Positions 2,898 to 35,447 of a stretch of 64,000 bases of DNA are shown here, piece by piece; within the stretch, counting starts at the first letter, position 1; the number at the start of each line of letters is the position of its first letter. Made by a program: the position numbers and the translations under genes. The notes under the pieces were generated by a model. It made no database searches. It was not told the DNA's origin and worked only from the letters and a program-made list of their open reading frames with translations. Source of the DNA: an uncultured Gammaproteobacteria bacterium (GTDB lineage Bacteria > Pseudomonadota > Gammaproteobacteria > JAURND01); contig CAVQQD010000003.1 in the NCBI GenBank assembly GCA_963714975.1, forward strand, positions 782,624 to 846,623, given 5' to 3'.

Positions 2898-2973
<76 letters not shown>

Positions 2974-4184: not shown

Positions 4185-4439
4185 CTGAAAGTTAAGAAAA
4201 TACGATACTTCAAGATGCTAAAAAGACAGTATCTTGAAGTGCAATGGGTATATACTGAGCTGCGCCACGAAAAAATCACACCCCATTTAAATGGATTTAA
4301 ACGACTGAAAGCTGTTAATGTGCTCATATAAACTCTCAGCCAATGCGCATTGATTTTTTTCATATTCTTCGTAGCGCTGATTAATCTCTGCATGTTGATC
4401 TAATAGTAATTCTGCCGCGCCGTTAATAACTGGAACAAG

Positions 4440-4640
4440 CGCAAGCATTATTAAATGATGCTTGCCCACTCAATGCTCCTGCCCGTGCTGACCTGCGGCG
4501 TGATTTTTTACAACAATTAGCAGAATATAAAAAAGCTGACCCTGATAAGCCGCCCACCTCAGCAAGCGTTACAAAAGCGCGCTATTCAAGTGAGTTCATC
4601 AGTAACAACAACTACTACGAGTCGATTAATTTCCCCACAA
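4440..4640. repeat. Inverted duplicate of the 3' end of the WD40 gene (gene-end remnant)
   Basis: Plus-strand 4440-4560 is near-identical to the reverse complement of ~4880-5000. It encodes ...NAPARADLRRDFLQQLAEYKKADPDKPP, versus the WD40 protein C-terminus ...NAPARADLRRDFLKQLAEYKKADPAKPP. There is no upstream ORF, so it reads as a truncated remnant. Confidence 0.6.
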
Positions 4641-4777: not shown

Positions 4778-6790
4778 TTAGGTTGACGAAGACGAATAGG
4801 TTGTGGAGCTCGAGGAGGCGACCTGTGACAAGCTACTCTGTCCTTGAATATCACGCAAGAGTTGCATCATATTTTGCAACGCTTGCTGCTGTGCTGATGT
4901 GGGTGGTTTAGCAGGGTCCGCTTTTTTATATTCTGCTAATTGTTTCAAAAAATCACGCCGCAGGTCAGCGCGGGCAGGAGCATTGGGTGGGCAAGCGGTA
5001 TTGAGTAGTTCTTGGGCTTGTTTCAATAATGCACCGGTGGTGAGTAAGGGAGTCTTCATGCTCGGAGGAGATTTTTGCTCTGATTGCGGGGCAGAAAAAA
5101 ATTGTGGATAGGCAGTAATAGGTGGTTGGGATTTTTGGCTGGAGCTTGGTGCAGAAGCAAGCCAAGGCCTAGGTGTTGTGAACGAAAATAATCCTCGCTT
5201 AGCAGTGGATCCCACAGATTTATTGTCTTTAGGCTGAGACGATGGAAGAGAGGGTTGTTTTAATTGAGTAGTTGATGATTGAGGTAAATTCAATGGAGCT
5301 GTACGAGAGGGTAGAGTAGCACGACGTGCTTTTGCGGAGGAAGATACCTTGGATTCTGTTTGAGGCGATACTGTTTCACTCACTTGAACTGATAATGATA
5401 AATCCTCCGAATTGACCTTAGTTTGTGCAATGTTTTGCGTTTCTTGAACCAGGGTAGTGCTGGGTTGTGCTCTTTTTTCTTCAGGAGGTTCCACCAAAAC
5501 CTCTTTCACATTCGCCCCATAGAGCTCCAATAAGCGTTTACTCTGGCTGTCCATACGGCAGCCCTGTAACTCTACCCCTTGAACCAGCAAGGGCATGGCC
5601 GAATGGGATGGCATTCCCACAAAACGCACTGAAGTATCTTTTCGAGAGACGGCCCAAAGACTGATAGTGCCTGCCCCATCACCGAAGGCTAAGCCGTCTT
5701 CATCAAGACGCAAGGAATTGAGAATATCTTCGTCGTTCTGAGCCAAAAAATGAGCGGTAGTCACGGCGACCGTGAAAATAGCTTGATGCCAAGAGATCAC
5801 CCCTAAACTGCGACCACTCTTGATCTCCCACAGACGCACGGTTTTATCATCGCTACCGGAGGCCAGCCAGTGGCCCTTGAGGTTGAAGGCGACACTTTTC
5901 ACCGCCATCGAATGCCCTCTGAGCTCACTCATCGGCTTTTGAGTGGTGGTATCCCACAGGCGCACGGTTTTATCAGAGCTTCCCGAGGCTAGCCAGCGGC
6001 CATCTGGGCTGAAAGCGACACTATGCACTACATTCGAATGCCCAGTGAGCAAACCTGCGGGCTTTTGGGTGGTCACGTCCCACAACCGCACGGTGTTATT
6101 CCAACTGCCACCGGACGCTAACCAGCTGCCATTGGGGCTGAAGGCGACACTGTTCACCGAATATGAATGTCCGGTGAGCTTGTCCAGGAATTTTTGTGTG
6201 GTGACTTCCCACAGGCGCACGGTATTGTCCTCGCTGCCGGAGGCGAGCCAACGTCCGTCTGGACTAAAGGCGACACTTTCCACTTTTCCTGAATGCCCGG
6301 TGAGCGGTTGGCCTACTAGCTTTTGCTCAGTCACGTCCCACAGACGTACGGTATGATCAAGACTGCCGGAGGCGAGCCAACGGCCATCAAAGCTGAAGGC
6401 AACACTCAGCACGAAACTCGAATGCCCTTTGAGTTGGCCTATTGGCTTTTGCTCAGTCACGTCCCACAGGCGCACGGTGTTATCCCAACTGCCGGAGGCG
6501 AGCCAACGTCCGTCTGGACTGAAGGCGACACTACTCACGTCTTTTGAGTGCCCGGTGAGTGGCTGGCCGATGGGTTGGCCGGTGCTATTGTCTTGGAACA
6601 TAATCGTGTTTCCTTGCGAGACCGCCAACCAGGGTTTGCTGGAGTGCCAGGCAATAGCCGAAGCTGCTTCAGCCAACGGCAACCAGGGTCGCTCCCCCCA
6701 GTCGGCTTCCCGTAGATCAGCGCCCTTAAGATTAGCGTGATAGAGGATGGTGTGGCGCAGGGTAGCGCCGCGCAGGTTGGCCTCTCGCAA
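4778..6790 (-). CDS. Pentapeptide-repeat + WD40-repeat protein with a Ser/Pro/Gln-rich C-terminal tail
   Basis: The N-terminus carries pentapeptide repeats (ANLRGATLRHTILYHANLKGADLREAD). About 8 WD40 units follow (GHS..V.SVAFSPDGRWLASGS.D.TVRLWDV) and are near-identical at the DNA level. The C-terminus is a low-complexity S/P/Q tail. Local GC is well above the window baseline. Confidence 0.8.
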   Translation of the reverse strand: MREANLRGATLRHTILYHANLKGADLREADWGERPWLPLAEAASAIAWHSSKPWLAVSQGNTIMFQDNSTGQPIGQPLTGHSKDVSSVAFSPDGRWLASGSWDNTVRLWDVTEQKPIGQLKGHSSFVLSVAFSFDGRWLASGSLDHTVRLWDVTEQKLVGQPLTGHSGKVESVAFSPDGRWLASGSEDNTVRLWEVTTQKFLDKLTGHSYSVNSVAFSPNGSWLASGGSWNNTVRLWDVTTQKPAGLLTGHSNVVHSVAFSPDGRWLASGSSDKTVRLWDTTTQKPMSELRGHSMAVKSVAFNLKGHWLASGSDDKTVRLWEIKSGRSLGVISWHQAIFTVAVTTAHFLAQNDEDILNSLRLDEDGLAFGDGAGTISLWAVSRKDTSVRFVGMPSHSAMPLLVQGVELQGCRMDSQSKRLLELYGANVKEVLVEPPEEKRAQPSTTLVQETQNIAQTKVNSEDLSLSVQVSETVSPQTESKVSSSAKARRATLPSRTAPLNLPQSSTTQLKQPSLPSSQPKDNKSVGSTAKRGLFSFTTPRPWLASAPSSSQKSQPPITAYPQFFSAPQSEQKSPPSMKTPLLTTGALLKQAQELLNTACPPNAPARADLRRDFLKQLAEYKKADPAKPPTSAQQQALQNMMQLLRDIQGQSSLSQVASSSSTTYSSSST

Positions 6791-6941
6791 ATCAGTATGC
6801 GCCAGAAACCCGTAGCTAAAATCTGCACCCGGGAGTTGCGCGCCACGCCAATCGCGCCCGCTAAAGTTGATCTGGCAGGCATTGAGTACCGTCGCGGCAT
6901 TAGCAGAGGCAGTCGCTAAGCTGGTCTCTTTCTTGCTGCGA

Positions 6942-7430
6942 TCAATCAGGGCGAACAGGGCTTGTAGTCATAAAATAATCCCCGAGGGAAGCATGAAAAA
7001 AATGCCAGCTGTGATCACTACTTTCTTGCAAGGGGCAGCCCTGGCGCAAGCGAGCACCATCGGGGAGTTGATCGCTCAGTAACTGTTGTGCTGGATCCTC
7101 TTCCAGGCTAGGAGTGGAGGAGTCGTAGCGCAAGCTCACCTGATTAGCTACCAACAGGCATTGGGCAAATTGGAAACAAAACACTCGATAGGCCGCTTTG
7201 AGCCAATATACCTGTACGTCATCGCCGCCTTTCGCTGCTTGTTCCTTAAGAGCCTGCATCGCTGGTTTGCCGAGAATAGTCGCGGGGTCTTGCAGGAAAC
7301 TGCGTTGCTGCCAGGCTTTTCGAGCCTGACGAGTAAACCACTGCTCCGGTTTGTTCTGACGTGAATGGCGAGAGGAGGCGCATCCGGTAACGCGACCAAT
7401 CTGGCGCTCCCTGGTCGGTATGCGGGACAA
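6942..7430 (-). CDS. Linker ORF between the NACHT-like ORF and the WD40 ORF; probably a frameshifted segment of one larger STAND-type gene
   Basis: It overlaps 7246..8007 in a different frame and is separated from the WD40 ORF by 151 nt in a third frame. No recognisable domain is present. Confidence 0.3.
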   Translation of the reverse strand: MSRIPTRERQIGRVTGCASSRHSRQNKPEQWFTRQARKAWQQRSFLQDPATILGKPAMQALKEQAAKGGDDVQVYWLKAAYRVFCFQFAQCLLVANQVSLRYDSSTPSLEEDPAQQLLSDQLPDGARLRQGCPLQESSDHSWHFFHASLGDYFMTTSPVRPD

Positions 7431-8007
7431 AACTTTCGGCCTCGTTGAGCGCCTGCATCCGCTGGCTGCGACAGCCGATGATCAGCTTCACCCTGTCCTT
7501 GGTCTCACGCAAATGATTGGCATCATATAAATTGATAGCGGCTTGTCCTGGGATTTCATCATAACCGTCGGCAATCCATAGGGTATGATACTCGCTTTGT
7601 AGCTCCCGAATTTCATTGCGGGTGAAGCCGCCAATCTCGGGAAGACTACGATAATAATCCCACAACTGCTGGGGATTAACTTGAGCGGAAGATAAGGGAA
7701 TAAACAGCGGCATTAACGCTTGAGGTGGCGGATCCCCGGGACGATAAGCCTGCCAGGCGGGGTCTTGCCACAGAATTTGGAGCAGATGGCGATTAAAGGT
7801 GCTTTTGCCCGCACCGCCCACGCCTTGCAGCACCAATACCTGGGCAGGACCTTGTAAGAATTCTTTTTCTACCCAAGGATATAGGGGATCGCAGGGTTGT
7901 CCCATCCCGGCTTGCGACTGACCGTTAGGGGCGATATAGCAAGAGAGTTCTTGGTTGAGCTGGGGGTCGGTTAATACCATGTGGCGGCTACCCCGGTTGG
8001 CCGCCAT
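7246..8007 (-). CDS. NACHT-type P-loop NTPase domain ORF (STAND family)
   Basis: Walker A VLVLQGVGGAGKST is present. A NACHT-style Walker B hhhhDGhDE appears as TLWIADGYDEIP. Confidence 0.55.
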   Translation of the reverse strand: MAANRGSRHMVLTDPQLNQELSCYIAPNGQSQAGMGQPCDPLYPWVEKEFLQGPAQVLVLQGVGGAGKSTFNRHLLQILWQDPAWQAYRPGDPPPQALMPLFIPLSSAQVNPQQLWDYYRSLPEIGGFTRNEIRELQSEYHTLWIADGYDEIPGQAAINLYDANHLRETKDRVKLIIGCRSQRMQALNEAESFVPHTDQGAPDWSRYRMRLLSPFTSEQTGAVVYSSGSKSLAATQFPARPRDYSRQTSDAGS

Positions 8008-9736
8008 AGGTACTACGCAGCACTAGGCCGGAAGTGCCTTCCCCCACGATGTTTTTCGTGGCTTCGGCGGTGATTTTTTCCTGACAAAATCGCTGACTCT
8101 CTTCAGCGCTAATTGCCAAATCTGTAGCTGGCCTGCTAGGAGTGGGGGTGGTCTGTTGCGTCTCGCTACCCAGGGTGCCGCGGTAGCGGCCTTCCCAGGT
8201 ACTTAGGTCAAATTGGGGATCACTGGTGTAACGGTTATACCGCGCCGGGAGTAAATGCCCCTTCGCATCGTGCGGCATGAAGTATGTGCTCTCTTCCAGC
8301 TTCGTCGCGGCGCTGAGAGTACTGTGTAATAGCAACCGCGTGCGTTCGGCGGCTCGGTACAATGCATTAGCTTCATACAGATTACGTGGTTCCTGCAGGG
8401 AATCAGGGCTCTGGACCAGCCAAAATAACGCATAGTGACTCTGTAATTCATGCCATTCGGCTTCGGTAAAATCGGCGGTTCCCGTCGGGGGCTGATGGCG
8501 ATGGATAAATAAGGGCGAAGTCCCCTTTTGGGGGGCCACTTGCAGGGGCAGCCAAGTGCTAGGGGGTGGATCCCCCGGACGGAATGCTTGCCATTCGGGG
8601 GCTTGCCATAAACCTCGTGCGGTTTCTGTCAATGGCGCACTCGGATCTTCTTCATCCTTACCGAGCCACAACAACACTTCAATTCGAGAATGGAACAGGG
8701 TTTGTTGAATGGCCTTTTGCAATCCAGGTACCGCTTTGGATTCGGATTGTGCTTGAAAATGATCGCGCAATTGACACAGTTTCACCCCCACTCCATAGCG
8801 CGGATCAGACGGATTGAGCCACCCCACGCTTTGATCGTCAGTCAATAACAAGACACCCCCTAAAGAACTCGTTCTCAGCGTGGTATTCACCAGAGAAGCG
8901 GTAATTGTCAGGGATTCACTCATTTCTGGCTTGGGCGAGGGCGTGGATACAGACACTTCATATTTTTTCTCTTTTTCTTCGGAGAAGGGCACCCCCTCCG
9001 GCCCCTTCGACCCGGCCCGTTGCCAGCAGGCATCTAGCCCTTTGGCCAGAGTTTTTAACGAAGGACGAGCCGAGGCCACCGGATCCGTGGCCGCTTTCAG
9101 GAATGCGATTAAGTCCGGCGGACAGGTAGGTGGCAGCCCTGCTCCTTTCTGCCACTCTTTGGCCACAGTGGAGGAGCCACTCGCGATGTGCCAAATCAAC
9201 TGCCCGAGCTTCTCCACATCTTCGGCTTCCGTCATGGGCGTCTCTTGTACCAAGGGCAGCAGTTGGGCTCGACCTTGAGCATCGAGGTATAAGTGCTGGC
9301 AATCCCAACCGAGGTGGGTCGCGCCCAGGGTACGGCGTTGGTATACACCCACCGCCACATCCCGCAATAGGCGACAGCGATTGACCCAAGACTTATTGGC
9401 GGGTGATTTCAGAAACTGATCAAAGCGCATTTCAGGTAAAGCCGCTAGGACTAAGGAACTGCTTTTGGTCCCCTGACAAATCCCTTTAACCGGTAACCAA
9501 AAGGGTAAGGCGCTTTGGGCAAAAGCTTGCAGGGACTTTTGCTGTAGTGGGGAAGCAGGCAACAGCTGCACCGTCACCGCTTCTCCTTGATAAGTCCCCC
9601 GGAACAAGGTAGTGGATTTTCCTTCGAGGGGCTTACCCTGTTGCAGCGCTTCGGCAGAAAGCATGGGCCAGGAAGCGGAAGTTTTGCTTCCCTGATTCGA
9701 ACTTGTGGGGGATGATGTGAGAGATGGTTCCTGCAT
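7988..9736 (-). CDS. Pseudokinase-like N-terminal domain plus a degenerate NACHT-like repeat; the upstream part of the STAND locus
   Basis: The N-terminus has a kinase-like fold (GKSTTLFRGTYQGEAVTVQLL ... HLGWDCQHLYLD) without a canonical catalytic loop. The C-terminal half parallels the 7246..8007 protein (WQAPEWQAFRPGDPPP / LYEANALYRAAERTRLLL versus WQDPAWQAYRPGDPPP / LYDANHLRETKDRVKLII) but lacks a Walker A. Confidence 0.5.
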   Translation of the reverse strand: MQEPSLTSSPTSSNQGSKTSASWPMLSAEALQQGKPLEGKSTTLFRGTYQGEAVTVQLLPASPLQQKSLQAFAQSALPFWLPVKGICQGTKSSSLVLAALPEMRFDQFLKSPANKSWVNRCRLLRDVAVGVYQRRTLGATHLGWDCQHLYLDAQGRAQLLPLVQETPMTEAEDVEKLGQLIWHIASGSSTVAKEWQKGAGLPPTCPPDLIAFLKAATDPVASARPSLKTLAKGLDACWQRAGSKGPEGVPFSEEKEKKYEVSVSTPSPKPEMSESLTITASLVNTTLRTSSLGGVLLLTDDQSVGWLNPSDPRYGVGVKLCQLRDHFQAQSESKAVPGLQKAIQQTLFHSRIEVLLWLGKDEEDPSAPLTETARGLWQAPEWQAFRPGDPPPSTWLPLQVAPQKGTSPLFIHRHQPPTGTADFTEAEWHELQSHYALFWLVQSPDSLQEPRNLYEANALYRAAERTRLLLHSTLSAATKLEESTYFMPHDAKGHLLPARYNRYTSDPQFDLSTWEGRYRGTLGSETQQTTPTPSRPATDLAISAEESQRFCQEKITAEATKNIVGEGTSGLVLRSTYGGQPG

Positions 9737-20366: not shown

Positions 20367-23300
20367 ATGGCCCCTAATATTTTTACTTGTTTTATCATTG
20401 GAGAGGATAATCTCCATTTGGAATGTGCCAAAATTATCCAACAACAAGGACAGCAAATAATAGGCATTATCTCTGCGTATGAAGCCGCAGAACTATGGGC
20501 TTTGCAACAGGGAATTCCCCACTATGCCTCGCTAGCAGCCGCCCAAGAAGCACTCAACAAGACTCCTTTTGATTATTTATTTAGCATCGTCAATGCGCAG
20601 ATTTTGCCTGCCGCGATACTCAATTTGCCTCGGCAATTGGCGATTAATTTTCATGATGCGCCTTTACCACGGTATGCTGGAGTTCACGCCACTTCCTGGG
20701 CGATCTTAAATCAAGAAAAGACGCATGGCATTACTTGGCATGTGGCTACTGAAACCGTCGATGCCGGTGATATTTTACAGCAAGTGATGGTGCCAATTAC
20801 TGAAGATGAAACTGCGTTGAGTTTAAACCTCAAATGCTATGAAGCCGCGCTGCAAAGCTTTCCTGAGTTAGTGAAATCTTTGGCGAATCACAGTTATCAA
20901 CGCCAACCCCAAGATCTAAGACAACGTACCTATTTTGGTCTCCATCAAAAACCTGCTGGCGATGGCTGGATTGATTGGAATGCCAGTGCCGAAGATATTG
21001 AGCGATTATTTCGGGCTACTCAATTTGGCTCCTATCCTAATCGGTTTACTTGTCCTAAATTTAAGTTGTCATTCCAGCCGGACGAACCGTCATCCCAGCA
21101 AGGAAGCTGGGAAGATGAATTTATTATCACTCAATTAGAACTATTACCCGAGCCATCGACTGTAGCTCCTGGAACCATTGTTGCTACTACAGAGGAGTAT
21201 TGGCGCGTTGCGACCGCTACTTGCGACATCGCTATTCGGCAGATTTGTACTTTAGAAGGTGATGCAGTCATTCTGGAAGGAGAAGGGGTGCTAGATCAGG
21301 CTCACCCCTCATCCGGCCTTCGGCCACCTTCTCCCACAAGGGGAGAAGGAGTGAAGTTGAGGGCTTATGAGGCTCGAGCGGAAATCTCCCCTTTGTCCTT
21401 CGAGACGCTTCGCTCCTCAGGACGAATGGGGGGCAGGGGGGATTTAAACAGCGGAGGAGGCGATGAAGCCTACTGGGTTTCCCAATGGCAATCCATAGAG
21501 CCTGCCAAAATTCCCTTCCTGAATTTTAATCACCTCGAAAATAAATCCTCATTCCTTCTCCCCCTGTGGGAGAAGGTGGCCGAAGGCCGGATGAGGGGAG
21601 AACCCTCAGAATTCACCCCTCATCCGCCAGCCTACCCTGAGCCTGTCGAAGGGGCACCTTCTCCCACAAGGGGAGAAGAAGTAATGCCGGGGATGTATGA
21701 GAGGAGGTATTATCACCTACAACAATGGACCCTCCCCACCTCCTTACAAAAATTATTACACCAACATTACCCTACTCACGATTTCAACACCCTTCTTTTA
21801 GCCCTCTGGCTCGTCTATTTTTATCGTCTCGGTAATCAACCCAACGTAGGAGTGCTGCTGCAATTACCTGATCAAAATGCTTCACATCCTAGTGATCTGG
21901 ATCCTGGCATCCATGCCAGGACGAGTTTAGAACTACCGTATTTCACTGTCTTACAAGACGGATTACACTTCGGCCAAGTAGTGTCCCAATTACAAGATGA
22001 GTTACAGGCCATGCAACAAAAAGGCAGTTATTTACGCGATATATTTTATCGTTATCCAATTTTAACCGAAGTCAAACACGCCGTGTTTACTGCAGTGGTG
22101 ATTGGAGAAATCAATCAGCTACAAAAATCTCGTGCTGCTTTGGTGTTGGGGATATCTGCCAAAGATTATAGTTTATCTTGGCACGTCGATCAAAATTGCT
22201 TAACACAAGAACCCTACTTAAAAACCATCCTAGATCAAATGCCCGGCCATTTAGAAACCTTGCTAACCGCCATTACCACGCAACCAGAAACTCCCATTGC
22301 CGATTTAGTGCTACTTACACCCCAAGAACAGCAGCAAATCTTAATTGATTGGAATCAAACTGAAACAGACTATCCACGCGATAAAACTATTCCGCAATTA
22401 TTTGAAGAACAGGTTCAAAAACATCCCAATAAAATCGCCGTTTGTTTTGAAAATCAATCGCTCACCTATCGTGAGCTTAATCAACAAGCCAATCAACTTG
22501 CGCATTACTTAAGTCAACAAGGGGTGGTAGCTGAAACTTTAGTCGCAATTTGCATGGAACGCAGCATCGAAATGATTATTGGGATTTTGGGGATTTTAAA
22601 GGCGGGGGGTGCTTATGTGCCGATTGATCCTGAGTATCCAAGAGCGAGAATAAAGTTCATTTTCGAGGATTGTCGGGCTATGTTTGTGCTTACTCAATCT
22701 CGTCTTGCTAAGAAAATACATGCTATTACAGATGGCGCTGTTATTACGGTTGATAAAATTAAAAATATCAAAATTCATAACAAAGAATCTATTAGCTTAA
22801 ATTTTGACTCTTCTCAATTAGCTTATGTCATTTACACCTCAGGTACTACGGGAAAACCCAAAGGGGTTCTTATTAAACATCAGGCGGTGGTGAATACGGT
22901 CTTGGCAAAGTTACGAAAATTTGCCATTAATCACTCTGATAGAATCTTAAATTTTTCCACCCTTAGTTTTGATGCTTCTGTGTGGGAGATATTTCCCTGT
23001 CTATTTGCAGGAGCAACCTTATATCTGGCCAGGAAAGAAAATTTGTTACCAGGCAGTAAACTTACGCATTTTCTAGAAAAAAATAAAATTACTATCGCTA
23101 CTTTAGTGCCTTCTATACTAGCGATAACTCCACCACCTTCTACCTCCCATTTGCGGATAATTATTTCAGCGGGTGAATCATGCTCGAAGGCGGTAGTAAA
23201 GCAATGGGAAAACGTCGCTATTTTTGTTAATGCCTATGGGCCCACTGAATTTACAATTTGTGCTGCTATGGCAATCGTAGGTAAAGATGCAAATAAAATA

Positions 23301-26300
23301 ACTATTGGTAGACCGATTGCAAATACTAAAATTTTTATTTTAGACGATAAAATGCAGCTTTTACCCGTAGGCATCACCGGAGAGTTGTACGTCACAGGAC
23401 ACGGTTTGGCAAAAGGATATTTAAATCGAGATGCACTGACTAAAAGTAAGTTTATACCTTGGGCTTTGGAGCATGGAACCAAAGAGGTATCTCAAATAGT
23501 GTATAAAACGGGTGACTTGGCTCGTTGGTTGCCTGATGGTAACCTAGAATATATGGGCCGAGTGGATGAACAAATTAAAATTTTAGGCTGTCGGGCAGAG
23601 TTAGGTGAACTGGAAGAAATAGCAGTAACGTATCCTAATATTTTACAAGCTGCGGCTTGTCTAGATACAACAGCCGAAAAAAACCAAATTAACCTCTTTT
23701 TTGTCAATAAAAGTGACCGCAATGCAATTGATATTGCAAAGTTTAATCGCTTTCTAAAAAAACAGGTCCCTCGCTACACTGTTCCCTCTAAAATAATTGA
23801 AGTAGCTCGATTTCCAAGAACCGTTAATGGGAAAATTGATAAAAATTTATTGCTCAAAAAAATGTTTTTCATTAAGCAACCAGTTATAGAACCTCCGTCG
23901 ATCAAAGAAACATTACTCCTGGAAATTTTTCAAAAGATACTGAGAATTGATTCACTCCATTTAGAGGATGACTTCTTTCTCCTGGGGGGTGACTCCATTT
24001 TAGCAATGCATTTGGTTTCCAAAATCAATGCATTAGGCTTCCATTGTTCCGTGCGAGATGTATTTGAAGCATCCACCATAAAAAAATTGGTCATAAGGTT
24101 ACATAAAAAAAATCCTATAGAACCGATTGCGCTATTATCCAAAGATTTTTCCTTAACTCCAATTCAGCGTTGGTTTTTTGCGCAATCTTTCAGGCATCCG
24201 AAGCAGTTTGTTCAAATTTGCTGGCTAGAATTTCAAAAACCCATTAATTCAGAATTACTCGTTTGCTGCTTGCGGGAAATTATTGAATGGCATGAAATTT
24301 TTCGTCTTCGCTTTAAAAAGAAAGAAGGAATTTGGCAACAATATTATGCTGATAAGGTTCATGAATCATGCACCGATTTTCCAGTTATCGATAACTCTTC
24401 GCTGGTAATTCAGGATTTTGCGAATGAGTGGGTGATGAATGTGGCCCAGGATTTTAATTTTGAGACAGGCTATCTACTCAAGGTGGCCTTAGTACGCCAG
24501 CAAGGGAAAATTACCCATTTACTCTTAGCAGCACATCATTTGATTATGGATGGTGTATCTTGGCAAATTTTCTTTGATGATTTGCAGAGTTTATATGCAG
24601 GATCGGAAAAAGAGGGTAATAATTGGCAAAAATTTGCCAATAGTACTTCCTATCAACAGTGGGTTTACGCGCTAGAAAACTATATAGTTTCTTCGCAATT
24701 TAAAGCAGAGCAAAGCCATTGGCAAGGTGTTGATCCATTTACGTACATTCCTATTGATCACCACCAAGGGACTAATACGGAAAAATCTGCAGAATATGTC
24801 ACCGTAACATTAACCGAGGAAGAAACTCAGCGTTTATTGCGCACACTCGCTAAAACGCATCACTTGAATACCGATGAAATTCTAATTGCCTTGTTGGCAA
24901 AGTCCCTCATGCGCTGGTGCCAAACAGATTGCATCACGCTGGATATTGAACGCCACGGTCGGGAAGAATTAACAACGGAAATTAATTTAACAGGCACTTT
25001 AGGTTGGTTTACTAGTCTATTTCCTCTGCGGTTAAGCTGTAATAAAAATTTATCGCTACTCGAAATCATCCAATCGGTTCAGCAGCAATTACAAACGGTA
25101 CCACGTCATGGCATTAGTTATGGGTTACAGCATTATTTTTCTGGAGAATGGAAGCCAAAATCCAGTCTGCATGAGGGTGAAAATTTTACATCCCTGCACG
25201 CTGGATCCCGGCATCCTGCCGGGACGACGGGCCGCATCGCCTTTAATTACTGGGGTCAATTGGATCAAGCTTTTGCACAAAATTTCTTCACTTTGGGTGA
25301 GTTAAAATTGTTATCGCATCCCGAAAATATTCGTCCCTATTTGATCACTATTGATGCCGTAATCAAAAATAAGCAACTGCAACTAAGTTGGGCTTATAGT
25401 CGCAACTTCCATCGCCATGAAACCATCCAAGATCTCGCGCAGAATTTTGTGACTGATCTTCGAAATTTATTAACAAACACTCAGTTACAAAAACCAAAAA
25501 TTAGCTATGCTTTGACCGCGGTTCAACAAGGGTTACTCTTTGAACAATGTCGCTTTCCGCAAGCGCATTATTATCAAGCACAAGCGTGTTGGGAGCTGAA
25601 ATTATCTGGTCATTTTGATGCCAAATTATTACAAGCCGCATGTCGCTTTTTAGTGCAGCGTCATGATGTGTTGCGAACTCGTTTTGTGGTGTCAGGGTCG
25701 CAAGAGCCCACGCAATTCGTTGAAGAATCTATGGAAGTGCCTTGTGACATAATAGATCTACAGCAAGCGAAAGACCCTGAAGTGCAACTCACAAAGTTTC
25801 GTCTTGCCGACCAAGCTGCTTTGATTCATTGGCAAGCAACATCCCTTTTACGTGTTCAAATAGTGCTGCTGCCTGAAAATCGCTGTTACTTAATTTTGCA
25901 TTTTAATCACATGATTTTAGATGGCTGGAGTTTTTCGATTTTAGTCAAAGAATTTCACCAGTATTGTCAGGCGCAACAACAAGGATTAGCGCTGAATTTG
26001 CCCCCTACTTATCCTTTTGCTGATTATGTCCACTGGTTGCAGCACCAGAGTTGGAGTGCAAGTCAGGCGTTTTGGAAAAATTATTTGGCTAAATTTAATG
26101 AACCTGTCAATTTAAAGGTCTTGGGATTATTCGATGCGACGGCTGAAAAAACCGAGCTCTCGCGATGCGAGTTTGTGTCAACTCCCTTGTCTTCTGAATT
26201 AGGTCAAAAATTACAGCATTTTTGCCAAATGCAGCACATCAGCTTAAACACATTCTTTCAAGCGTTATGGGGTATTTTATTGCACCGCTATACCCAGACC

Positions 26301-29300
26301 CCTGATATTGTGACGGGCATGACCGTGTCGGGACGCAATATTGACTTGCCTCAGATCCAAGAGCGGGTAGGATTATTTATTAATAGTATTCCCTTGCGAC
26401 AACAGTTTGTCCCTGAGATAACAGTGCTGGCTCACTTGCAACAATTGCAAAAGACTATTACGTGCTTAATTCCGCACAGCACCTTCCCTCTTGCCGCCAT
26501 TCAAGCCTGCTCTGCACTATCTACTGCAGAACATCCCTTGTTTGATAGTCTAGTCGTCTTTGAAAATTATCCCCAAGCAACCCAAGAGGAAATCGAATTT
26601 TGGGATCCAACTCATTATGGTTTGACTTTGCTTATTACTCAAGGTTCCTGTTTGAAGCTGAAATTAGGCTATGATTGCCAACGTATTAATATAGAACGAG
26701 TCCAAAATTTACTGGAACATTTACAACATCTTTTGACCGTAGTCTTAGACAATCCACAGCAACAGATTGCCCGCTTACCTTTATTGACTACAGCAGAATA
26801 TCAAAAGCTATTTGCTCCAACCCAAACTGTAGTAGTGCTGGAAAATGTGGTAAGTTGTTTTCAAAAACAAGTAGTTAGTTCTCCTCACCATCCCGCGCTA
26901 GTTTGGGAGGGTCAGGTCTTGAGTTATCAAGACTTAGAAAATCAATCCAATCAATTGGCGCATTATTTAGCGACATTTCCGCATCATGGTGAAATGCCGA
27001 TTGGAGTATGCTTACCCCGTTGTCCCGAATTAGTCATCAGTTTGCTCGCGATCTGGAAGATGGGGGGAGCTTATTTGCCTTTAAATCCTGACTATCCGAC
27101 GGCTCGATTGCAAAGTATAGTAGATAGCCATCAAGTGAATCTTTTAATTTCCAAGAACATGATTCAAAAACTTACCGTGAACCATCCGATATTGTTGGAT
27201 CAAGTTCAAGCGAGTATCTGTCAACAACCTACTTATTATCCTCAGCATAGGATTCAACTGACGGATTTGGCGGCCATTTTAACCACTTCAGGCACCACCG
27301 GTAATCCTAAAAGCATTGCCCAAGAACATAAAACACTGGCGAATCTTGTGCATTGGCAACATCATGCATTTGCTTCCTCAGCAAAAAGACGAGTGACGCA
27401 ATTAGCAGCAATGAATTTTGATGTTTCATTACAAGAAATAACTTATGCGCTTGCTCAGGGCGATACGCTATATATTGTGCCAGAAACTATCAAACAATCC
27501 CTGGCGGAATTACTACGCTTTTTAGCGATCAATAAAATTCAACAAGCATTTTTAACCACTGCTTTATTGGAAGTTTTTTGTGAAGCGGCCTTATTTTTTA
27601 AACCCAACTTAAACTATCTGACTGAGATTTATGTAGCAGGAGAGGCATTAAAAATCTCTGGCCCGATCAAACAATTTTTTTCGCAAAATCCTCATATAGA
27701 CTTGGTGAATGAATATGGACCGACGGAAACTCATGTAGTAGCGACTCATCGATTATCAGTAGATACCATCGATAATTGGCCTTATTTACCGCCCATTGGA
27801 CGCGCAATTGACAACATCCGCTTATATGTCTTAGATGCCCAGTTACAAGCCTTACCGATCGGTATTCCGGGTGAGCTGTATATAGGTGGCGTCAATTTAG
27901 CGCGTGGTTATCTCCACAATGACAAGCTCACCCAAGAAAAATTTGTCCCCAATCCCTTTGATCCTATTGGTACCTCACGCTTATATCGTACGGGTGATCA
28001 GGTTCAGTGGAATGCGGCAGGGGAATTACTTTATTTAGGCCGTTACGATGATCAAGTAAAAATTCGCGGTTTTCGTATTGATCCGCAAGAAATTGAAGAA
28101 GCCTTACTAACACATAGCACCATTCAACAATGTTTGGTGACTGTGATTTCAGAGGAAAAATCAGCGCAATTAGTGTGCTATTTTGTCCCTTCTGATAAAA
28201 ATGAAGATGCAGAAAGTTTACGCCACCCATTGCGAAAAATATTACCTGACCATTTAATTCCGACCTATTTTATCAGGTTACAGTCCTTTCCCTTAACACG
28301 CGTTGGCAAAATTGATCGGCAGGCACTACCCCGACCTGAGCAAAGGAATGCCATAAGTAATACCACTTTTCGTCACGCTTATGAGCAACAACTCGCCGAG
28401 TTGTGGTCCGAAATTCTCCTTTGCACTTGCATAGATCGAGAGGTATCTTTTTGGGCTTTGGGTGGTGACTCGATTAAAGCTTTGCGCTTATTATTCTTAA
28501 TTGAACATCATTTGCAAGTGACGTTATCGCTGCAGGATTTTTTTACAGCACCTTCCATTGCCCAGATGAGTGATCGCATTCGTTTGACACAAGCGGATAA
28601 GGTATTGCAAAATCAGTGGCAAACCCTAGATTTTAAAGGATGCCACTTACCTTCTCCCTTAGTGCCATTACAAACCACAGGAGAAAAAACACCGCTGTTT
28701 ATTATCCACCCGATTGGTGGCACAGTTTTTGCCTTTTTAGATTTGGTCCGTTATCTGGGAAATGAGCGACCTATTTATGGAATTCAAGACCCCAACGTAG
28801 CTGACAATAACCATATTTCTTTTTTTAAAAATTTAGAAGAATTAGCAGCCTATTATGTTTATGCATTGCGCAGTGTCCAGCCTCAGGGTCCTTATTTTTT
28901 GTCGGGTTGGTCCTTTGGTGCTACTGTTGCCTTTGAAATGGCGCGACAAATTCTCGCTAGTCATGAAAAAGTAGAATTTTTAGGCTTACTCGATGGTTGG
29001 GCGGCGTATCCCAGCGAATTGCAAAATGAAAAAACATTCAAACAACTCATTCAAAAACAATGTGATGACTTATACCAACAATTTCATCTCAATCAACTAA
29101 AAAATCCTGATTTCTGGGTGGAACTACAATGGCAACGCAGTGATCTGCTTTGGCGATATAAGTTAAGACCTGTAAACACAGCTATAACTTTATTTAAAGC
29201 GAAAGAAGGGATACCAGGATTTCATGAGTCGTATGAGAAAGATTATGGCTGGCATCAATTTACCACCAAGCCAGTAGAAGTGTATGAGGTTCCGGGGGAT

Positions 29301-29387
29301 CATGCTTCGATGTTTCAGGAACCTTATGTGCAATCTTTAGCTGGTGCAGTATCTGCTGCATTAAATGAGGGACATATGGTTCATTAG
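20367..29387 (+). CDS. Nonribosomal peptide synthetase, two modules with an N-terminal formyltransferase (F) domain: F - partial C - A1 - T1 - C - C(NHxxxDG) - A2 - T2 - TE
   Basis: The N-terminus is Fmt-like (..HDAPLPRYAGVHATSWAILNQE..). A-domain cores appear twice (YTSGTTGKPKGV / TSGTTGNPKSI, NAYGPTE / NEYGPTE, GELYVTGHGLAKGYLNR / GELYIGGVNLARGYLHND, YKTGDLARW / YRTGDQVQW). T domains are LGGDSILA and LGGDSIKA. C domains carry HHLIMDGVSW and NHMILDGWSF. The TE has GWSFGATVAFE. Confidence 0.85.
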   Translation: MAPNIFTCFIIGEDNLHLECAKIIQQQGQQIIGIISAYEAAELWALQQGIPHYASLAAAQEALNKTPFDYLFSIVNAQILPAAILNLPRQLAINFHDAPLPRYAGVHATSWAILNQEKTHGITWHVATETVDAGDILQQVMVPITEDETALSLNLKCYEAALQSFPELVKSLANHSYQRQPQDLRQRTYFGLHQKPAGDGWIDWNASAEDIERLFRATQFGSYPNRFTCPKFKLSFQPDEPSSQQGSWEDEFIITQLELLPEPSTVAPGTIVATTEEYWRVATATCDIAIRQICTLEGDAVILEGEGVLDQAHPSSGLRPPSPTRGEGVKLRAYEARAEISPLSFETLRSSGRMGGRGDLNSGGGDEAYWVSQWQSIEPAKIPFLNFNHLENKSSFLLPLWEKVAEGRMRGEPSEFTPHPPAYPEPVEGAPSPTRGEEVMPGMYERRYYHLQQWTLPTSLQKLLHQHYPTHDFNTLLLALWLVYFYRLGNQPNVGVLLQLPDQNASHPSDLDPGIHARTSLELPYFTVLQDGLHFGQVVSQLQDELQAMQQKGSYLRDIFYRYPILTEVKHAVFTAVVIGEINQLQKSRAALVLGISAKDYSLSWHVDQNCLTQEPYLKTILDQMPGHLETLLTAITTQPETPIADLVLLTPQEQQQILIDWNQTETDYPRDKTIPQLFEEQVQKHPNKIAVCFENQSLTYRELNQQANQLAHYLSQQGVVAETLVAICMERSIEMIIGILGILKAGGAYVPIDPEYPRARIKFIFEDCRAMFVLTQSRLAKKIHAITDGAVITVDKIKNIKIHNKESISLNFDSSQLAYVIYTSGTTGKPKGVLIKHQAVVNTVLAKLRKFAINHSDRILNFSTLSFDASVWEIFPCLFAGATLYLARKENLLPGSKLTHFLEKNKITIATLVPSILAITPPPSTSHLRIIISAGESCSKAVVKQWENVAIFVNAYGPTEFTICAAMAIVGKDANKITIGRPIANTKIFILDDKMQLLPVGITGELYVTGHGLAKGYLNRDALTKSKFIPWALEHGTKEVSQIVYKTGDLARWLPDGNLEYMGRVDEQIKILGCRAELGELEEIAVTYPNILQAAACLDTTAEKNQINLFFVNKSDRNAIDIAKFNRFLKKQVPRYTVPSKIIEVARFPRTVNGKIDKNLLLKKMFFIKQPVIEPPSIKETLLLEIFQKILRIDSLHLEDDFFLLGGDSILAMHLVSKINALGFHCSVRDVFEASTIKKLVIRLHKKNPIEPIALLSKDFSLTPIQRWFFAQSFRHPKQFVQICWLEFQKPINSELLVCCLREIIEWHEIFRLRFKKKEGIWQQYYADKVHESCTDFPVIDNSSLVIQDFANEWVMNVAQDFNFETGYLLKVALVRQQGKITHLLLAAHHLIMDGVSWQIFFDDLQSLYAGSEKEGNNWQKFANSTSYQQWVYALENYIVSSQFKAEQSHWQGVDPFTYIPIDHHQGTNTEKSAEYVTVTLTEEETQRLLRTLAKTHHLNTDEILIALLAKSLMRWCQTDCITLDIERHGREELTTEINLTGTLGWFTSLFPLRLSCNKNLSLLEIIQSVQQQLQTVPRHGISYGLQHYFSGEWKPKSSLHEGENFTSLHAGSRHPAGTTGRIAFNYWGQLDQAFAQNFFTLGELKLLSHPENIRPYLITIDAVIKNKQLQLSWAYSRNFHRHETIQDLAQNFVTDLRNLLTNTQLQKPKISYALTAVQQGLLFEQCRFPQAHYYQAQACWELKLSGHFDAKLLQAACRFLVQRHDVLRTRFVVSGSQEPTQFVEESMEVPCDIIDLQQAKDPEVQLTKFRLADQAALIHWQATSLLRVQIVLLPENRCYLILHFNHMILDGWSFSILVKEFHQYCQAQQQGLALNLPPTYPFADYVHWLQHQSWSASQAFWKNYLAKFNEPVNLKVLGLFDATAEKTELSRCEFVSTPLSSELGQKLQHFCQMQHISLNTFFQALWGILLHRYTQTPDIVTGMTVSGRNIDLPQIQERVGLFINSIPLRQQFVPEITVLAHLQQLQKTITCLIPHSTFPLAAIQACSALSTAEHPLFDSLVVFENYPQATQEEIEFWDPTHYGLTLLITQGSCLKLKLGYDCQRINIERVQNLLEHLQHLLTVVLDNPQQQIARLPLLTTAEYQKLFAPTQTVVVLENVVSCFQKQVVSSPHHPALVWEGQVLSYQDLENQSNQLAHYLATFPHHGEMPIGVCLPRCPELVISLLAIWKMGGAYLPLNPDYPTARLQSIVDSHQVNLLISKNMIQKLTVNHPILLDQVQASICQQPTYYPQHRIQLTDLAAILTTSGTTGNPKSIAQEHKTLANLVHWQHHAFASSAKRRVTQLAAMNFDVSLQEITYALAQGDTLYIVPETIKQSLAELLRFLAINKIQQAFLTTALLEVFCEAALFFKPNLNYLTEIYVAGEALKISGPIKQFFSQNPHIDLVNEYGPTETHVVATHRLSVDTIDNWPYLPPIGRAIDNIRLYVLDAQLQALPIGIPGELYIGGVNLARGYLHNDKLTQEKFVPNPFDPIGTSRLYRTGDQVQWNAAGELLYLGRYDDQVKIRGFRIDPQEIEEALLTHSTIQQCLVTVISEEKSAQLVCYFVPSDKNEDAESLRHPLRKILPDHLIPTYFIRLQSFPLTRVGKIDRQALPRPEQRNAISNTTFRHAYEQQLAELWSEILLCTCIDREVSFWALGGDSIKALRLLFLIEHHLQVTLSLQDFFTAPSIAQMSDRIRLTQADKVLQNQWQTLDFKGCHLPSPLVPLQTTGEKTPLFIIHPIGGTVFAFLDLVRYLGNERPIYGIQDPNVADNNHISFFKNLEELAAYYVYALRSVQPQGPYFLSGWSFGATVAFEMARQILASHEKVEFLGLLDGWAAYPSELQNEKTFKQLIQKQCDDLYQQFHLNQLKNPDFWVELQWQRSDLLWRYKLRPVNTAITLFKAKEGIPGFHESYEKDYGWHQFTTKPVEVYEVPGDHASMFQEPYVQSLAGAVSAALNEGHMVH
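21296..21700. repeat. Cluster of palindromic repeat elements inserted in-frame within the NRPS coding sequence (F-domain/C-domain linker)
   Basis: Three copies of a ~48-bp unit CACCCCTCATCCGGCCTTCGGCCACCTTCTCCCACAAGGGGAGAAGG lie at 21303-21350 and 21614-21686 (direct) and 21551-21598 (inverted). The family-1 core GACGCTTCGCTCCTCAGGACGAATGGGG is at 21404-21431. GGGGGGCAGGGGGGATTT is at 21427-21444. The ORF stays open and translates this stretch as low-complexity peptide (..PSPTRGEGV.. appears twice). Confidence 0.6.
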
Positions 29388-29436
29388 GGTCAAAAATTTA
29401 CTAATACGATGTTTTAACAAAATTTGGAGATTACTT

Positions 29437-35186: not shown

Positions 35187-35447
35187 TTAAGGATAATAGG
35201 GATGATACGGATGTACGTACGGGTGGTAGTATGGATGATATGGGTAATAAGGATGATAGGGATGCACGTACGGATGGTAGTATGGATGATACGGATAATA
35301 GGGGTGATAGGGATGCACGTACGGATGATAGTACGGGTAATAAGAAACGGAAACACCAAGCTGGGCATAGCTCCCTAATGACGTAACCGCCAATAGACCA
35401 GCAGCCAAGGCCAAGGCAATCCGCTTTTTTAAAGAACCAAGTTTCAT
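35187..35447 (-). CDS. Secreted His/Tyr/Pro-rich tandem-repeat peptide
   Basis: Signal peptide MKLGSLKKRIALALAAGLLAVTSLGSYAQ, then YPYYHPYVHPYHPY repeated three times (42-nt DNA repeats), ending ..HPYYP. Followed by a terminator. Confidence 0.55.
   Translation of the reverse strand: MKLGSLKKRIALALAAGLLAVTSLGSYAQLGVSVSYYPYYHPYVHPYHPYYPYHPYYHPYVHPYHPYYPYHPYYHPYVHPYHPYYP

What the first reader, a model, noticed from the sequence alone, without database searches (positions are those of the whole stretch)
4778..9736. Fragmented high-GC STAND-like locus: pseudokinase, degenerate NACHT, NACHT, linker, pentapeptide, WD40 x8
Four consecutive minus-strand ORFs, each in a different frame from its neighbour, encode the successive pieces of a NACHT-WD40 (NWD/Avs-like) architecture with an N-terminal kinase-like domain. 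The adjoining ORFs overlap by 20 nt and 185 nt, with a 151-nt gap before the WD40 ORF. GC content is much higher than in surrounding DNA, suggesting horizontal origin. Intact bacterial NACHT proteins with N-terminal effector domains act in antiphage defence. Here the gene appears frame-disrupted, so it is either a pseudogene or a sequencing problem, with an intact WD40-pentapeptide ORF remaining. The WD40 units are near-identical at the DNA level, which creates spurious antisense ORFs and recombination potential.
Basis: partly seen in the sequence, partly recalled or inferred. Interest (0 to 1): 0.6.

Follow-up and report, generated by a model that had tools for sequence, protein, structure and literature searches.

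The report
Deletion-wrecked giant kinase–NACHT–WD40 pseudogene
The four ORFs are the remains of one very large NLR-like switch protein, from a rare family of uncultured soil or sediment bacteria, that lost its active kinase and part of its ATPase through three internal deletions, so it is a dead gene and not a sequencing error or a working defence system.

The parts
9014..9625 (-). Pseudokinase domain in the N-terminal part of ORF1. It is a dead paralogue of the family's own kinase: the VAVK lysine is Q, the HRD motif reads HLG, DFG reads PLV, and part of the activation segment is missing.
   Evidence: tblastn/blastp of the L001 kinase (residues 628-874) against this stretch gives 25% identity, E 1e-11 to 9e-13. 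There is no Pfam hit. The same degeneracy is seen in all family members.
8252..8848 (-). Degenerate NACHT-like domain in the C-terminal half of ORF1. Walker A and Walker B are both lost (LGKDEEDPSA and FWLVQSPDS).
   Evidence: The L001 NACHT (residues 1034-1247) matches it at 28.5% identity, E 2e-12. The reciprocal hit of the L001 degenerate copy on window ORF2 is 29% identity, E 2.5e-21. P0025 and P0026 each match ORF2 in two stretches.
7994..8071 (-). Stub of the true kinase. The 26 residues TAEATKNIVGEGTSGLVLRSTYGGQP cover the G-loop and the first beta strands, after which the homology stops.
   Evidence: 54% identity to L001 residues 618-643. Every homologue alignment ends at window position 8006.
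7987..8005 (-). Deletion junction 1. About 420 homologue residues (kinase plus linker; L001 640-1060, P0025 597-996, P0026 612-1136) are replaced by 19 nt, and the frame shifts by +1.
7348..7986 (-). P-loop core of the NACHT module (ORF2). It has Walker A GVGGAGKST, Walker B LWIADGYDE (the NACHT signature D-G-h-D-E) and IGCRSQ.
   Evidence: 62-64% identity to L001, P0025 and P0026, and 78% to P0009. Pfam NACHT scores 18.6 bits, below the gathering score. 663 homologues were found, and 8 of 10 tested carry PF05729 on the matching segment.
7341..7347 (-). Deletion junction 2. 103 residues of the closest relative (P0009 306-408; L001 1267-1366) are replaced by 7 nt, and the frame shifts by +1. 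What is lost is the helical subdomain after the P-loop core (including the DTPFMLWM..LSILP motif) and a disordered loop.
   Evidence: secondary structure of the model.
6960..7340 (-). C-terminal helical part of the NACHT module (the conserved part of ORF3), ending in WHFFHASLGDYFMTT.
   Evidence: 54-62% identity to L001, P0025 and P0026, and 78% to P0009. There is no Pfam hit.
6955..6967 (-). Deletion junction 3. 53-71 homologue residues are missing and the frame shifts by +1. The same bases ACTACAAGCC read TTS in ORF3's frame and LQA in ORF4's frame, and both readings match the homologues. This is the pattern expected for a deletion between short direct repeats.
   Evidence: Sequence; alignments.
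6701..6844 (-). Pentapeptide-repeat domain. Its first 18 codons or so lie upstream of ORF4's first possible start codon (TTG at 6790).
   Evidence: Pfam Pentapeptide scores 1.5e-13 (50.5 bits, above the gathering score) on the conceptual fusion, but only a weak NCBIfam hit on ORF4 as called. Open frame established.
5633..6679 (-). WD40 beta-propeller with six canonical repeats (5825-6553) and one degenerate blade on each side.
   Evidence: Pfam WD40 1.5e-84, 6 stretches. TRF gives period 126, 5.6 copies, 71% matches. Motif count.
4781..5632 (-). Low-complexity Ser/Pro/Gln-rich tail with a conserved C-terminal helix (…ADLRRDFLKQLAEYKK…LLRDIQ). Its GC3 is host-like (0.396).
   Evidence: Homologous tails occur in L001B, P0025 and P0027.
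4430..4564 (+). Relic of the 3' end of a second, convergently oriented copy of the same gene. It is 45 codons long and closed off by stop codons upstream.
   Evidence: Inverted repeat 4426-4576 / 4872-5030, 86% complementary. tblastn gives 87% identity to ORF4's tail, E 7e-18.
10538..11407 (+). Divergently oriented tyrosine-recombinase-like gene (context only). The same arrangement occurs upstream of the L001 homologue.
   Evidence: Pfam PF12834 1e-14 and PF12835 2e-8. L001 7424-8113 is an orthologue cut by an IS. 242 plasmid records match at up to 44.5% identity. Three copies clustering at 90% or more identity occur in a related genome.

Best explanation
Window 4778-9736 is a pseudogene: the decayed remains of a single gene of about 2400-2750 codons for a giant NLR-like STAND protein. 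The ancestral domain order is pseudokinase, degenerate NACHT, active eukaryote-like (TKL-type) Ser/Thr/Tyr kinase, NACHT NTPase, pentapeptide repeats, WD40 propeller(s), then a low-complexity tail.

Shown: in this genome three internal deletions (net about 1244, 293 and 161 nt, each 3n+2) removed (i) the whole active kinase and its linker, (ii) the helical subdomain that follows the NACHT P-loop core, and (iii) a linker before the pentapeptide repeats. Each deletion shifted the frame by +1, which produces the four ORFs. At least one junction carries the mark of a deletion between short direct repeats.

Inferred: the intact protein works like other NACHT/NLR switches. The pentapeptide-WD40 region would bind a ligand, the NACHT would exchange nucleotide and oligomerise, and the kinase would be activated by induced proximity. 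The dead N-terminal kinase-NACHT duplicate would act as a scaffold or regulator. The window copy cannot do this, because it lacks the effector kinase and a complete NTPase module. At most it yields a 582-residue dead-domain fragment from the native start. A 45-codon relic of a second, convergent copy next to it shows that this locus is losing the family by deletion, as expected for non-functional DNA in bacteria.
For: Single-ORF ancestry: P0025 (2613 aa) and P0026 (2746 aa) are uninterrupted, with the kinase at about 580-930 and 10-12 WD40 repeats. L001 is 1745+707 aa, L006 is 1004+1409 aa, and L002 holds the full content.

Same three breakpoints against every homologue: alignments run 9679-8006, 7986-7348, 7340-6960 and 6961 onward, with 400-525, about 100 and 53-71 homologue residues unaccounted for (alignment A1).

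The kinase is absent from the window apart from the G-loop stub.

Frame breaks in the MAG relatives are single-base indels beside short homopolymers, with no content lost. Those MAGs are Nanopore-only (PMC12313526). The window's lesions are of a different kind.

ORF4 has no start codon across 57 conserved codons.

Deletion 2 maps to helices 302-361 of that model.

The second-copy relic is documented.
Against: No in-frame stop interrupts any of the four homologous segments. ORF1 is open for 585 codons from its native start. Identity to relatives (45-62%) is no lower than the identity among intact relatives. So the decay is either recent or some pieces are still under selection. I could not obtain DNA from the closest relative (the 1.24-Mb contig), so the ancestral state at nucleotide level and dN/dS are unknown. 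The source contig (866 kb; NCBI and ENA) is probably a metagenome assembly. I had no reads, so an assembly artefact or a minority structural variant cannot be formally excluded. The function of the intact family is inferred from domain logic only.
Confidence: 0.85

Rival explanations
1. Sequencing or assembly artefact: the gene is intact in the organism, and the frame changes are long-read indel errors or a collapsed assembly.
For: Related copies in Nanopore MAGs do show single-base frame breaks at short homopolymers (L001 15075-15085; L002 near 3350 and 5250). So do P0167 and P0168 from a close relative. The window's contig is probably from the same kind of data.
Against: Point errors cannot remove about 1.7 kb of coding sequence. 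All three frame changes coincide exactly with missing homologous blocks. The deletion ends do not fall in the internally duplicated kinase/NACHT segments, so repeat collapse does not explain them. Three independent precise mis-joins inside one gene are improbable.
Confidence: 0.05
2. Gene fission: some pieces are retained as working stand-alone genes. For example, ORF1 (pseudokinase plus dead NACHT) could be a scaffold or decoy, and ORF4 could be a free WD40 protein, perhaps acting with the two intact kinase-ankyrin paralogues next door.
For: ORF1 keeps the native ATG, has a promoter-like site at 9788-9761 (not above chance) and is fully open. ORF1, ORF2 and ORF4 are called as genes in public annotation. 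The WD40 array is intact. The neighbouring kinases 11705-13522 and 13927-16605 are 42-44% identical to the lost kinase.
Against: ORF4's first start codon falls inside the conserved pentapeptide domain, and 57 conserved codons upstream are untranslatable in that frame. ORF3's conserved part begins 30 codons after its only start, inside ORF2's out-of-frame tail. ORF2 encodes a P-loop core without its helical partner domains. No relative has such a split architecture with its content removed. Promoter and terminator motifs are not enriched.
Confidence: 0.08
3. Programmed +1 ribosomal frameshifting at three sites yields one shortened STAND protein.
For: All three shifts are +1 and they sum to a return to the original frame. 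The open frames overlap at each junction (32, 233 and 23 nt).
Against: Relatives encode the protein in one frame. Given three frame-breaking deletions, the chance that all fall in the same class is about 1 in 4, so the pattern is unremarkable. The read-through product would still lack the kinase and the NACHT helical subdomain. No recoding signal was looked for or seen.
Confidence: 0.02

Closest known systems
Bacterial NACHT (NLR-related, 'bNACHT') proteins, Kibby et al. (bioRxiv 10.1101/2022.07.19.500537)
   Same: A central NACHT module with Walker A and the D[GAS]hDE Walker B signature, an N-terminal effector and a C-terminal repeat sensor. That paper lists Pkinase, pentapeptide and beta-propeller domains among the fusions found in bacterial NACHT proteins.
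   Different: No PADLOC defence model hits the NACHT part of this family. Antiphage activity has not been tested. The family has an extra dead kinase-NACHT duplicate at the N-terminus. The window copy is a pseudogene that lacks the effector and part of the NACHT.
Animal NLR NACHT modules (NOD2, NLRP3, NLRC4, NAIP5)
   Different: Only 13-19% sequence identity. The flanking domains differ: kinase and WD40/pentapeptide here, against CARD/PYD and LRR in NLRs.
NACHT-pentapeptide-WD40 and ARM_5-NACHT proteins (P0023 from a Propionibacteriaceae MAG; P0020 and P0021 in Mortierella-type fungal assemblies; P0053, P0058)
   Same: Nearest sequence relatives outside the family (E 1e-12 to 1e-27), with the same NACHT, pentapeptide and WD40 order.
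   Different: They have other N-terminal domains (ARM-like, OTU) in place of the kinase, and no dead duplicate.
ROCO/LRRK-type proteins (Dictyostelium Roco4, LRRK2)
   Same: They work in a similar way: a nucleotide switch, a TKL kinase and a WD40 domain in one giant polypeptide. The Roco4 kinase is among the closest solved kinases (E 3e-39).
   Different: The switch there is a Roc GTPase with a COR domain, not a NACHT, and the domain order differs. This is a resemblance, not membership.
Avs (antiviral STAND) proteins, e.g. Avs4
   Same: STAND NTPase with an N-terminal effector and a C-terminal sensor.

Membership tests
NACHT NTPase (STAND) | Walker A P-loop GxxxxGK[ST] | tested here: met
   ORF2 reads GVGGAGKST. 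It is conserved in all relatives.
NACHT NTPase (STAND) | Walker B with the NACHT-specific D[GAS]hDE signature (criterion as stated by Kibby et al.) | tested here: met
   ORF2 reads LWIADGYDE, i.e. D-G-Y-D-E. I, A, D, G, D and E are invariant columns in alignment A1.
NACHT NTPase (STAND) | Pfam PF05729 at or above the gathering score (26.7 bits) | tested here: not met
   18.6 bits for ORF2, 14.5 bits for the fusion and 21.8 bits for the intact L001 protein.
NACHT NTPase (STAND) | Significant homology to proteins that pass PF05729, on the same segment | tested here: met
   P0019 at E 1.8e-27 with 91% coverage. 8 of 10 distant ORF2 relatives carry PF05729 at 31.9-72.9 bits on the matching residues.
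NACHT NTPase (STAND) | NACHT/NLR fold of the module | tested here: met
NACHT NTPase (STAND) | Complete module in one reading frame in the window copy (P-loop core plus following helical and winged-helix parts) | tested here: not met
   103 residues after the core are deleted and the remainder is in another frame.
Protein kinase (Pkinase / PK_Tyr_Ser-Thr) | Catalytic domain recognised by Pfam, with the VAIK lysine, HRD aspartate and DFG motif | tested here: not met
   The window has no kinase hit at E <= 1 on ORF1 or on the fusion. The N-terminal domain has Q for the lysine, HLG for HRD and PLV for DFG. The true kinase (Pfam 9e-60 in L001) is deleted except for 26 residues.
Protein kinase fold (pseudokinase) | Significant homology of ORF1's N-terminal domain to a bona fide kinase domain | tested here: met
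   25% identity over 250 residues to the L001 kinase, E 9e-13. L001's own copy matches at E 3e-21.
WD40 beta-propeller | Pfam PF00400 repeats above threshold | tested here: met
   E 1.5e-84, 275 bits, 6 stretches.
Pentapeptide repeat | Pfam PF00805 above threshold | tested here: met
   50.5 bits against a gathering score of 20.2 on the conceptual fusion. On ORF4 as called there is only a weak NCBIfam hit (8e-4), because the start codon truncates the domain.
Known antiphage STAND systems (Avs, bNACHT as in PADLOC) | A match of the NTPase or sensor part to a defence-system model | tested here: not met
   PADLOC gives nothing significant for the window ORFs. On intact P0025 and P0026, only kinase-type models (mad6, PD-T4-6, MkoA) and one WD40-type model hit.
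Known antiphage STAND systems (Avs, bNACHT as in PADLOC) | Demonstrated protection against phage | not testable with these tools
   This needs expression of an intact relative and a phage challenge.
Programmed ribosomal frameshift gene | The frame change is conserved in relatives and the full domain content is kept across it | tested here: not met
   Relatives are single-frame, and content is missing at each shift.

The most novel reading that the evidence does not exclude
The locus is a decayed member of a subfamily of NLR-like proteins that, as far as I could find, has not been described. In this subfamily a live TKL kinase-NACHT unit is preceded in the same polypeptide by a catalytically dead duplicate of itself (pseudokinase plus Walker-less NACHT) and followed by a pentapeptide-WD40 sensor. 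The subfamily appears confined to a few uncultured soil or sediment proteobacteria that are rich in eukaryote-like proteins (ankyrin, Sel1, TKL kinases). It tends to occur in two copies per locus next to a plasmid-type recombinase gene. The dead unit could act as a built-in pseudo-partner that controls oligomerisation. A bolder version is that the window's surviving ORF1 and ORF4 still function as stand-alone fragments.
Probability: 0.3. Interest if true: 0.5.

Novelty: new member of a known kind. Interest (0 to 1): 0.3.

Why it matters
For this window it matters mainly as a correction. The locus should be annotated as one pseudogene with three internal deletions, plus a relic of a second copy. 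It should not be annotated as four genes, a sequencing error or a working defence system. It is also a worked example of how to tell real gene decay from the single-base indels common in long-read MAGs: check whether homologous content is missing at the frame breaks. More broadly, the intact relatives define a rare giant kinase-NACHT-WD40 architecture with an internal dead duplicate, in bacteria that carry many eukaryote-like genes. Its NACHT module is structurally closest to animal NLRs, so an intact member such as P0025 or P0026 would be a reasonable candidate for testing kinase-effector NLR signalling in bacteria.

Tried and rejected
1. Exact look-ups of ORF1, ORF2, P0009 and P0166 to fetch the window's own record or the closest relative's DNA all returned 'not on record'. 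Nucleotide-level comparison with a close orthologue and dN/dS were therefore impossible.
2. A profile of the NACHT module (A1) against PDB sequences found nothing.
3. An AlphaFold model of window ORF2 with a 5-sequence alignment gave pLDDT 35 and was discarded. A second model, of P0009 with 18 sequences, worked.
4. PADLOC on the window ORFs and on intact relatives gave no NACHT, Avs or bNACHT model hits.
5. I looked for an att-type direct repeat of the tRNA-Asn 3' end to delimit a genomic island and found none, even with up to 3 mismatches.
6. The promoter and terminator scan was not above the shuffled expectation (7 against 5.7, and 10 against 7.1), so it gives no evidence for separate transcription units.
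7. The metagenome contig scan with A1 found only two distant loci, L007 and L008, which I did not pursue.
8. tblastn of the NACHT module against the plasmid and phage collections found no match.
9. Repeat collapse between the duplicated kinase/NACHT units as the cause of deletion 1 was rejected, because the breakpoints do not lie in the paralogous segments.
10. Rfam over the whole window found only the tRNA.
11. A literature search for a pseudokinase-NACHT tandem arrangement found no description.


Full report
**1. The observation**

The four minus-strand ORFs exist exactly as described: 7988-9736 (582 aa), 7246-8007 (253 aa), 6942-7430 (162 aa) and 4778-6790 (670 aa). The overlaps are 20 nt and 185 nt, and 151 nt separate ORF3's end from ORF4's first start codon.

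Stop-to-stop open stretches tell more. They are 9745-7991, 8022-7249, 7481-6945 and 6967-4781. The open frames therefore overlap at all three junctions, and the '151-nt gap' only reflects the first start codon in ORF4's frame. The frames run 1->2->0->1, which is three +1 shifts that bring ORF4 back into ORF1's frame.

GC is 0.52-0.57 across 5501-9500 against 0.35-0.46 in the flanks. GC3 is 0.51-0.63 against 0.379 +/- 0.059 for 22 other genes in the window. The C-terminal tail (4781-5749) is host-like, with GC3 0.396.

The WD40 units are not near-identical in DNA. TRF finds a 126-nt period, 5.6 copies and 70-71% matches. There are six canonical WD40 repeats plus two degenerate flanking blades.

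**2. Plain HMM tests**

- Pfam gives WD40 at 1.5e-84 for ORF4 and nothing for ORF1 or ORF3.
- NACHT scores 18.6 bits (gathering score 26.7) for ORF2.
- On a conceptual fusion, Pentapeptide passes (50.5 bits), NACHT drops to 14.5 bits and no kinase model hits.
- PADLOC and NCBIfam add nothing significant.

Deeper evidence was needed.

**3. Relatives show one ancestral gene with an extra domain**

The only relative among species-representative genomes is L001, from the MAG MFD04463.bin.2.67. It encodes a 1745-aa ORF and a 707-aa continuation after a single frame break.

Pfam on that protein finds a strong kinase at 623-866 (9e-60) and Pentapeptide (4e-10), with NACHT again just below threshold. 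The kinase lies between the degenerate NACHT-like region and the real NACHT.

The exhaustive HMMER search with ORF2 found 663 homologues. Among them are the uninterrupted proteins P0025 (2613 aa) and P0026 (2746 aa), each with a kinase and 10-12 WD40 repeats and each matching ORF2 in two stretches.

The ancestral architecture is therefore: pseudokinase, dead NACHT, kinase, NACHT, helical region, pentapeptide, WD40, tail.

**4. The frame changes are deletions**

tblastn of L001, P0025, P0026, P0027 and 18 other family fragments against the window gives the same breakpoints every time.

| Junction | Window positions | Homologue residues missing | What remains | What was lost |
|---|---|---|---|---|
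| 1 | stops at 8006, resumes at 7986 | 400-525 (L001 640-1060) | 19 nt | the whole kinase and its linker |
| 2 | stops at about 7348, resumes at 7340-7346 | about 100 (P0009 306-408) | 7 nt | helical subdomain after the P-loop core |
| 3 | stops at 6960, resumes at 6961 | 53-71 | none | a linker before the pentapeptide repeats |

The net losses are about 1244, 293 and 161 nt, each of the form 3n+2, which explains the three +1 shifts.

Alignment A1 shows the second deletion directly: PFTSEQT|WFTRQARKAW, skipping the conserved DTPFMLWM..LSILP block.

At junction 3 the bases ACTACAAGCC read TTS in ORF3's frame and LQA in ORF4's frame. Both readings match the homologues (FMTT[A/S] and [T/P]LQ[A/D]AL). 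This is the pattern expected for a deletion between short direct repeats.

ORF1 ends with a 26-residue stub of the true kinase's G-loop, NIVGEGTSGLVLRSTYGGQP.

**5. Why this is not a sequencing problem**

The frame breaks in the MAG relatives are single-base indels next to short homopolymers, and nothing is missing. Examples are AGCCCGGAT -> AGCCGGAT in L001 and two such sites in L002. The same pattern appears in P0167 and P0168 from a close relative. Those MAGs come from Nanopore-only sequencing (PMC12313526).

The window's lesions are of a different kind, since about 1.7 kb of coding sequence is absent. The deletion ends do not fall in the internally duplicated segments, so repeat collapse does not explain them. 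I had no reads, so a mis-assembly remains formally possible but unlikely.

**6. Domain identities**

*Pseudokinase.* ORF1's N-terminal domain is 25% identical to the family's own kinase over 250 residues (E 9e-13). L001's equivalent domain matches at E 3e-21. The VAVK lysine, the HRD aspartate, DFG and part of the activation segment are lost in all members.

*Dead NACHT.* ORF1's C-terminal half matches the real NACHT (28.5% identity, E 2e-12; reciprocal hit E 2.5e-21). It lacks both Walker motifs.

*NACHT.*
- ORF2 has GVGGAGKST and IADGYDE. The latter is the D[GAS]hDE signature that Kibby et al. give as diagnostic.
- The intact module hits a PF05729 protein at E 1.8e-27.
- 8 of 10 distant ORF2 relatives pass PF05729 on the matching segment.

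Deletion 2 removes helices 302-361 of that model, the disordered loop and the start of helix 398-419. That is the helical subdomain packed against the P-loop core.

*Kinase class.* The family kinase is of the eukaryote-like TKL/TK type. The closest solved structures include CTR1, Roco4, CSK and TAK1, at E 1e-35 to 3e-40.

**7. Context**

The host is an uncultured proteobacterium, probably gammaproteobacterial. Its CydA is at most 70% identical to anything else, and the named hits are Gammaproteobacteria, Burkholderiales and Legionellales MAGs. The window comes from an 866-kb contig on which ORF1, ORF2 and ORF4 are called as separate genes.

The neighbourhood is rich in eukaryote-like genes:
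- a Sel1 protein;
- two tandem kinase-ankyrin paralogues, 42-44% identical to the lost kinase;
- a 1119-aa ankyrin protein;
- a macro-domain protein.

A tRNA-Asn lies at 2898-2973, but no att-type repeat was found.

A plasmid-type tyrosine-recombinase-like gene sits divergently upstream in both the window and L001, where it is cut by an IS. It occurs in three copies in a related genome.

The gene's GC excess recurs in L001 (0.517 against 0.41/0.43) and L002 (0.550 against 0.49/0.46). It is unclear in L004. The composition therefore travels with the gene. That is compatible with a foreign origin but does not prove a recent transfer.

The family is rare. There were 8 + 16 hits in the 5.8-billion-protein index, almost all from the same MAG project; two distant loci in JGI metagenomes; and none on plasmids or phages.

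Other copies are also decaying. L004 is truncated, lacks the WD40 region and has HCD and DFQ in place of HRD and DFG.

**8. A second relic**

Window 4430-4564 (+ strand) encodes 45 residues that are 87% identical to ORF4's own C-terminal tail (E 7e-18). Stop codons close it off upstream. It forms a 150-nt inverted repeat (86% complementary) with 4872-5030.

This is what remains of a second, convergent copy. Relatives also hold two copies per locus (L003, L006, and the 1.24-Mb contig).

**9. Verdict**

The locus is a pseudogene of a giant kinase-NACHT-pentapeptide-WD40 NLR-like protein, inactivated by three internal deletions (confidence 0.85).

The mechanism of the intact protein is inferred from domain logic and from the NLR/bNACHT literature, not shown: a WD40/pentapeptide sensor, a NACHT switch and a kinase effector, with a dead duplicate as scaffold or regulator. 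Antiphage function is possible but unsupported here, since no PADLOC model hits the NACHT part.

The finding itself is ordinary gene decay. The family architecture is unusual and, as far as I could find, not described. Interest is 0.3.

Noticed in passing
window 4426-4576 (+) and 4872-5030: A 150-nt inverted repeat (86% complementary). The left arm encodes a 45-residue relic, 87% identical to ORF4's C-terminal tail, from a second convergent copy of the gene that has otherwise been deleted.
   Followed up: yes
window 11705-13522 and 13927-16605 (+): Two tandem kinase-ankyrin paralogues (TKL-type kinase, Pfam 5e-48 and 4e-53). Their DNA is 69-89% identical in blocks, and the second gene has an internal 840-nt duplication (14953-15252 against 15793-16092, 86%). 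Their kinase is 42-44% identical to the kinase deleted from the pseudogene.
   Followed up: partly
window 10538-11407 (+); L001 7424-8113 (-): A plasmid-type tyrosine-recombinase-like gene (PF12834 + PF12835) lies divergently upstream of the STAND gene in both genomes. In L001 it is truncated by an IS (6597-7484). Three copies clustering at 90% or more identity exist in a related genome (P0171-P0173). The best plasmid matches are Pleionea and Legionella plasmids at about 44%.
   Followed up: partly
window 2898-2973 (+): A tRNA-Asn (GTT) lies about 1.8 kb from the pseudogene's 3' end. No direct repeat of its 3' end occurs elsewhere in the window, so no island boundary could be drawn.
   Followed up: yes
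L001 15075-15085; L002 near 3350 and 5250: The MAG copies of the gene are split by single-base indels beside short homopolymers, with no content lost. These are probably Nanopore consensus errors that inflate gene counts in those MAGs.
   Followed up: yes
L004 915-4022: Another decayed family member (P0002, 1035 aa). Its N-terminus is truncated, it has no WD40 part and its kinase motifs are degraded (HCD, DFQ). It sits next to a PhdYeFM/PIN toxin-antitoxin pair and an ankyrin gene.
   Followed up: partly
P0020, P0021 (fungal assemblies); P0053, P0060, P0064, P0079, P0084: The nearest NACHT relatives outside the family are ARM_5-NACHT(-pentapeptide) proteins, some annotated from Mortierella-type fungi and one carrying an OTU protease domain. 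This hints at exchange between fungi or their endobacteria and these bacteria.
   Followed up: no
window 35188-35340: Three tandem copies of a 51-nt unit (82-88% identical) just beyond the 3' end of the 1119-aa ankyrin gene (35682-39041, minus strand).
   Followed up: no
window 20367-29387 (+): A 3006-aa ORF, followed by an overlapping hybrid histidine kinase/response regulator (29365-31530). The large ORF was not characterised.
   Followed up: no
L003 17985-24140+; L006 19836-23015: Relatives carry a second family copy a few kb downstream of the first. In L003 it is a 2617-aa kinase-WD40 gene, and in L006 it is a fragmented copy. The family therefore tends to occur as paired paralogues.
   Followed up: partly
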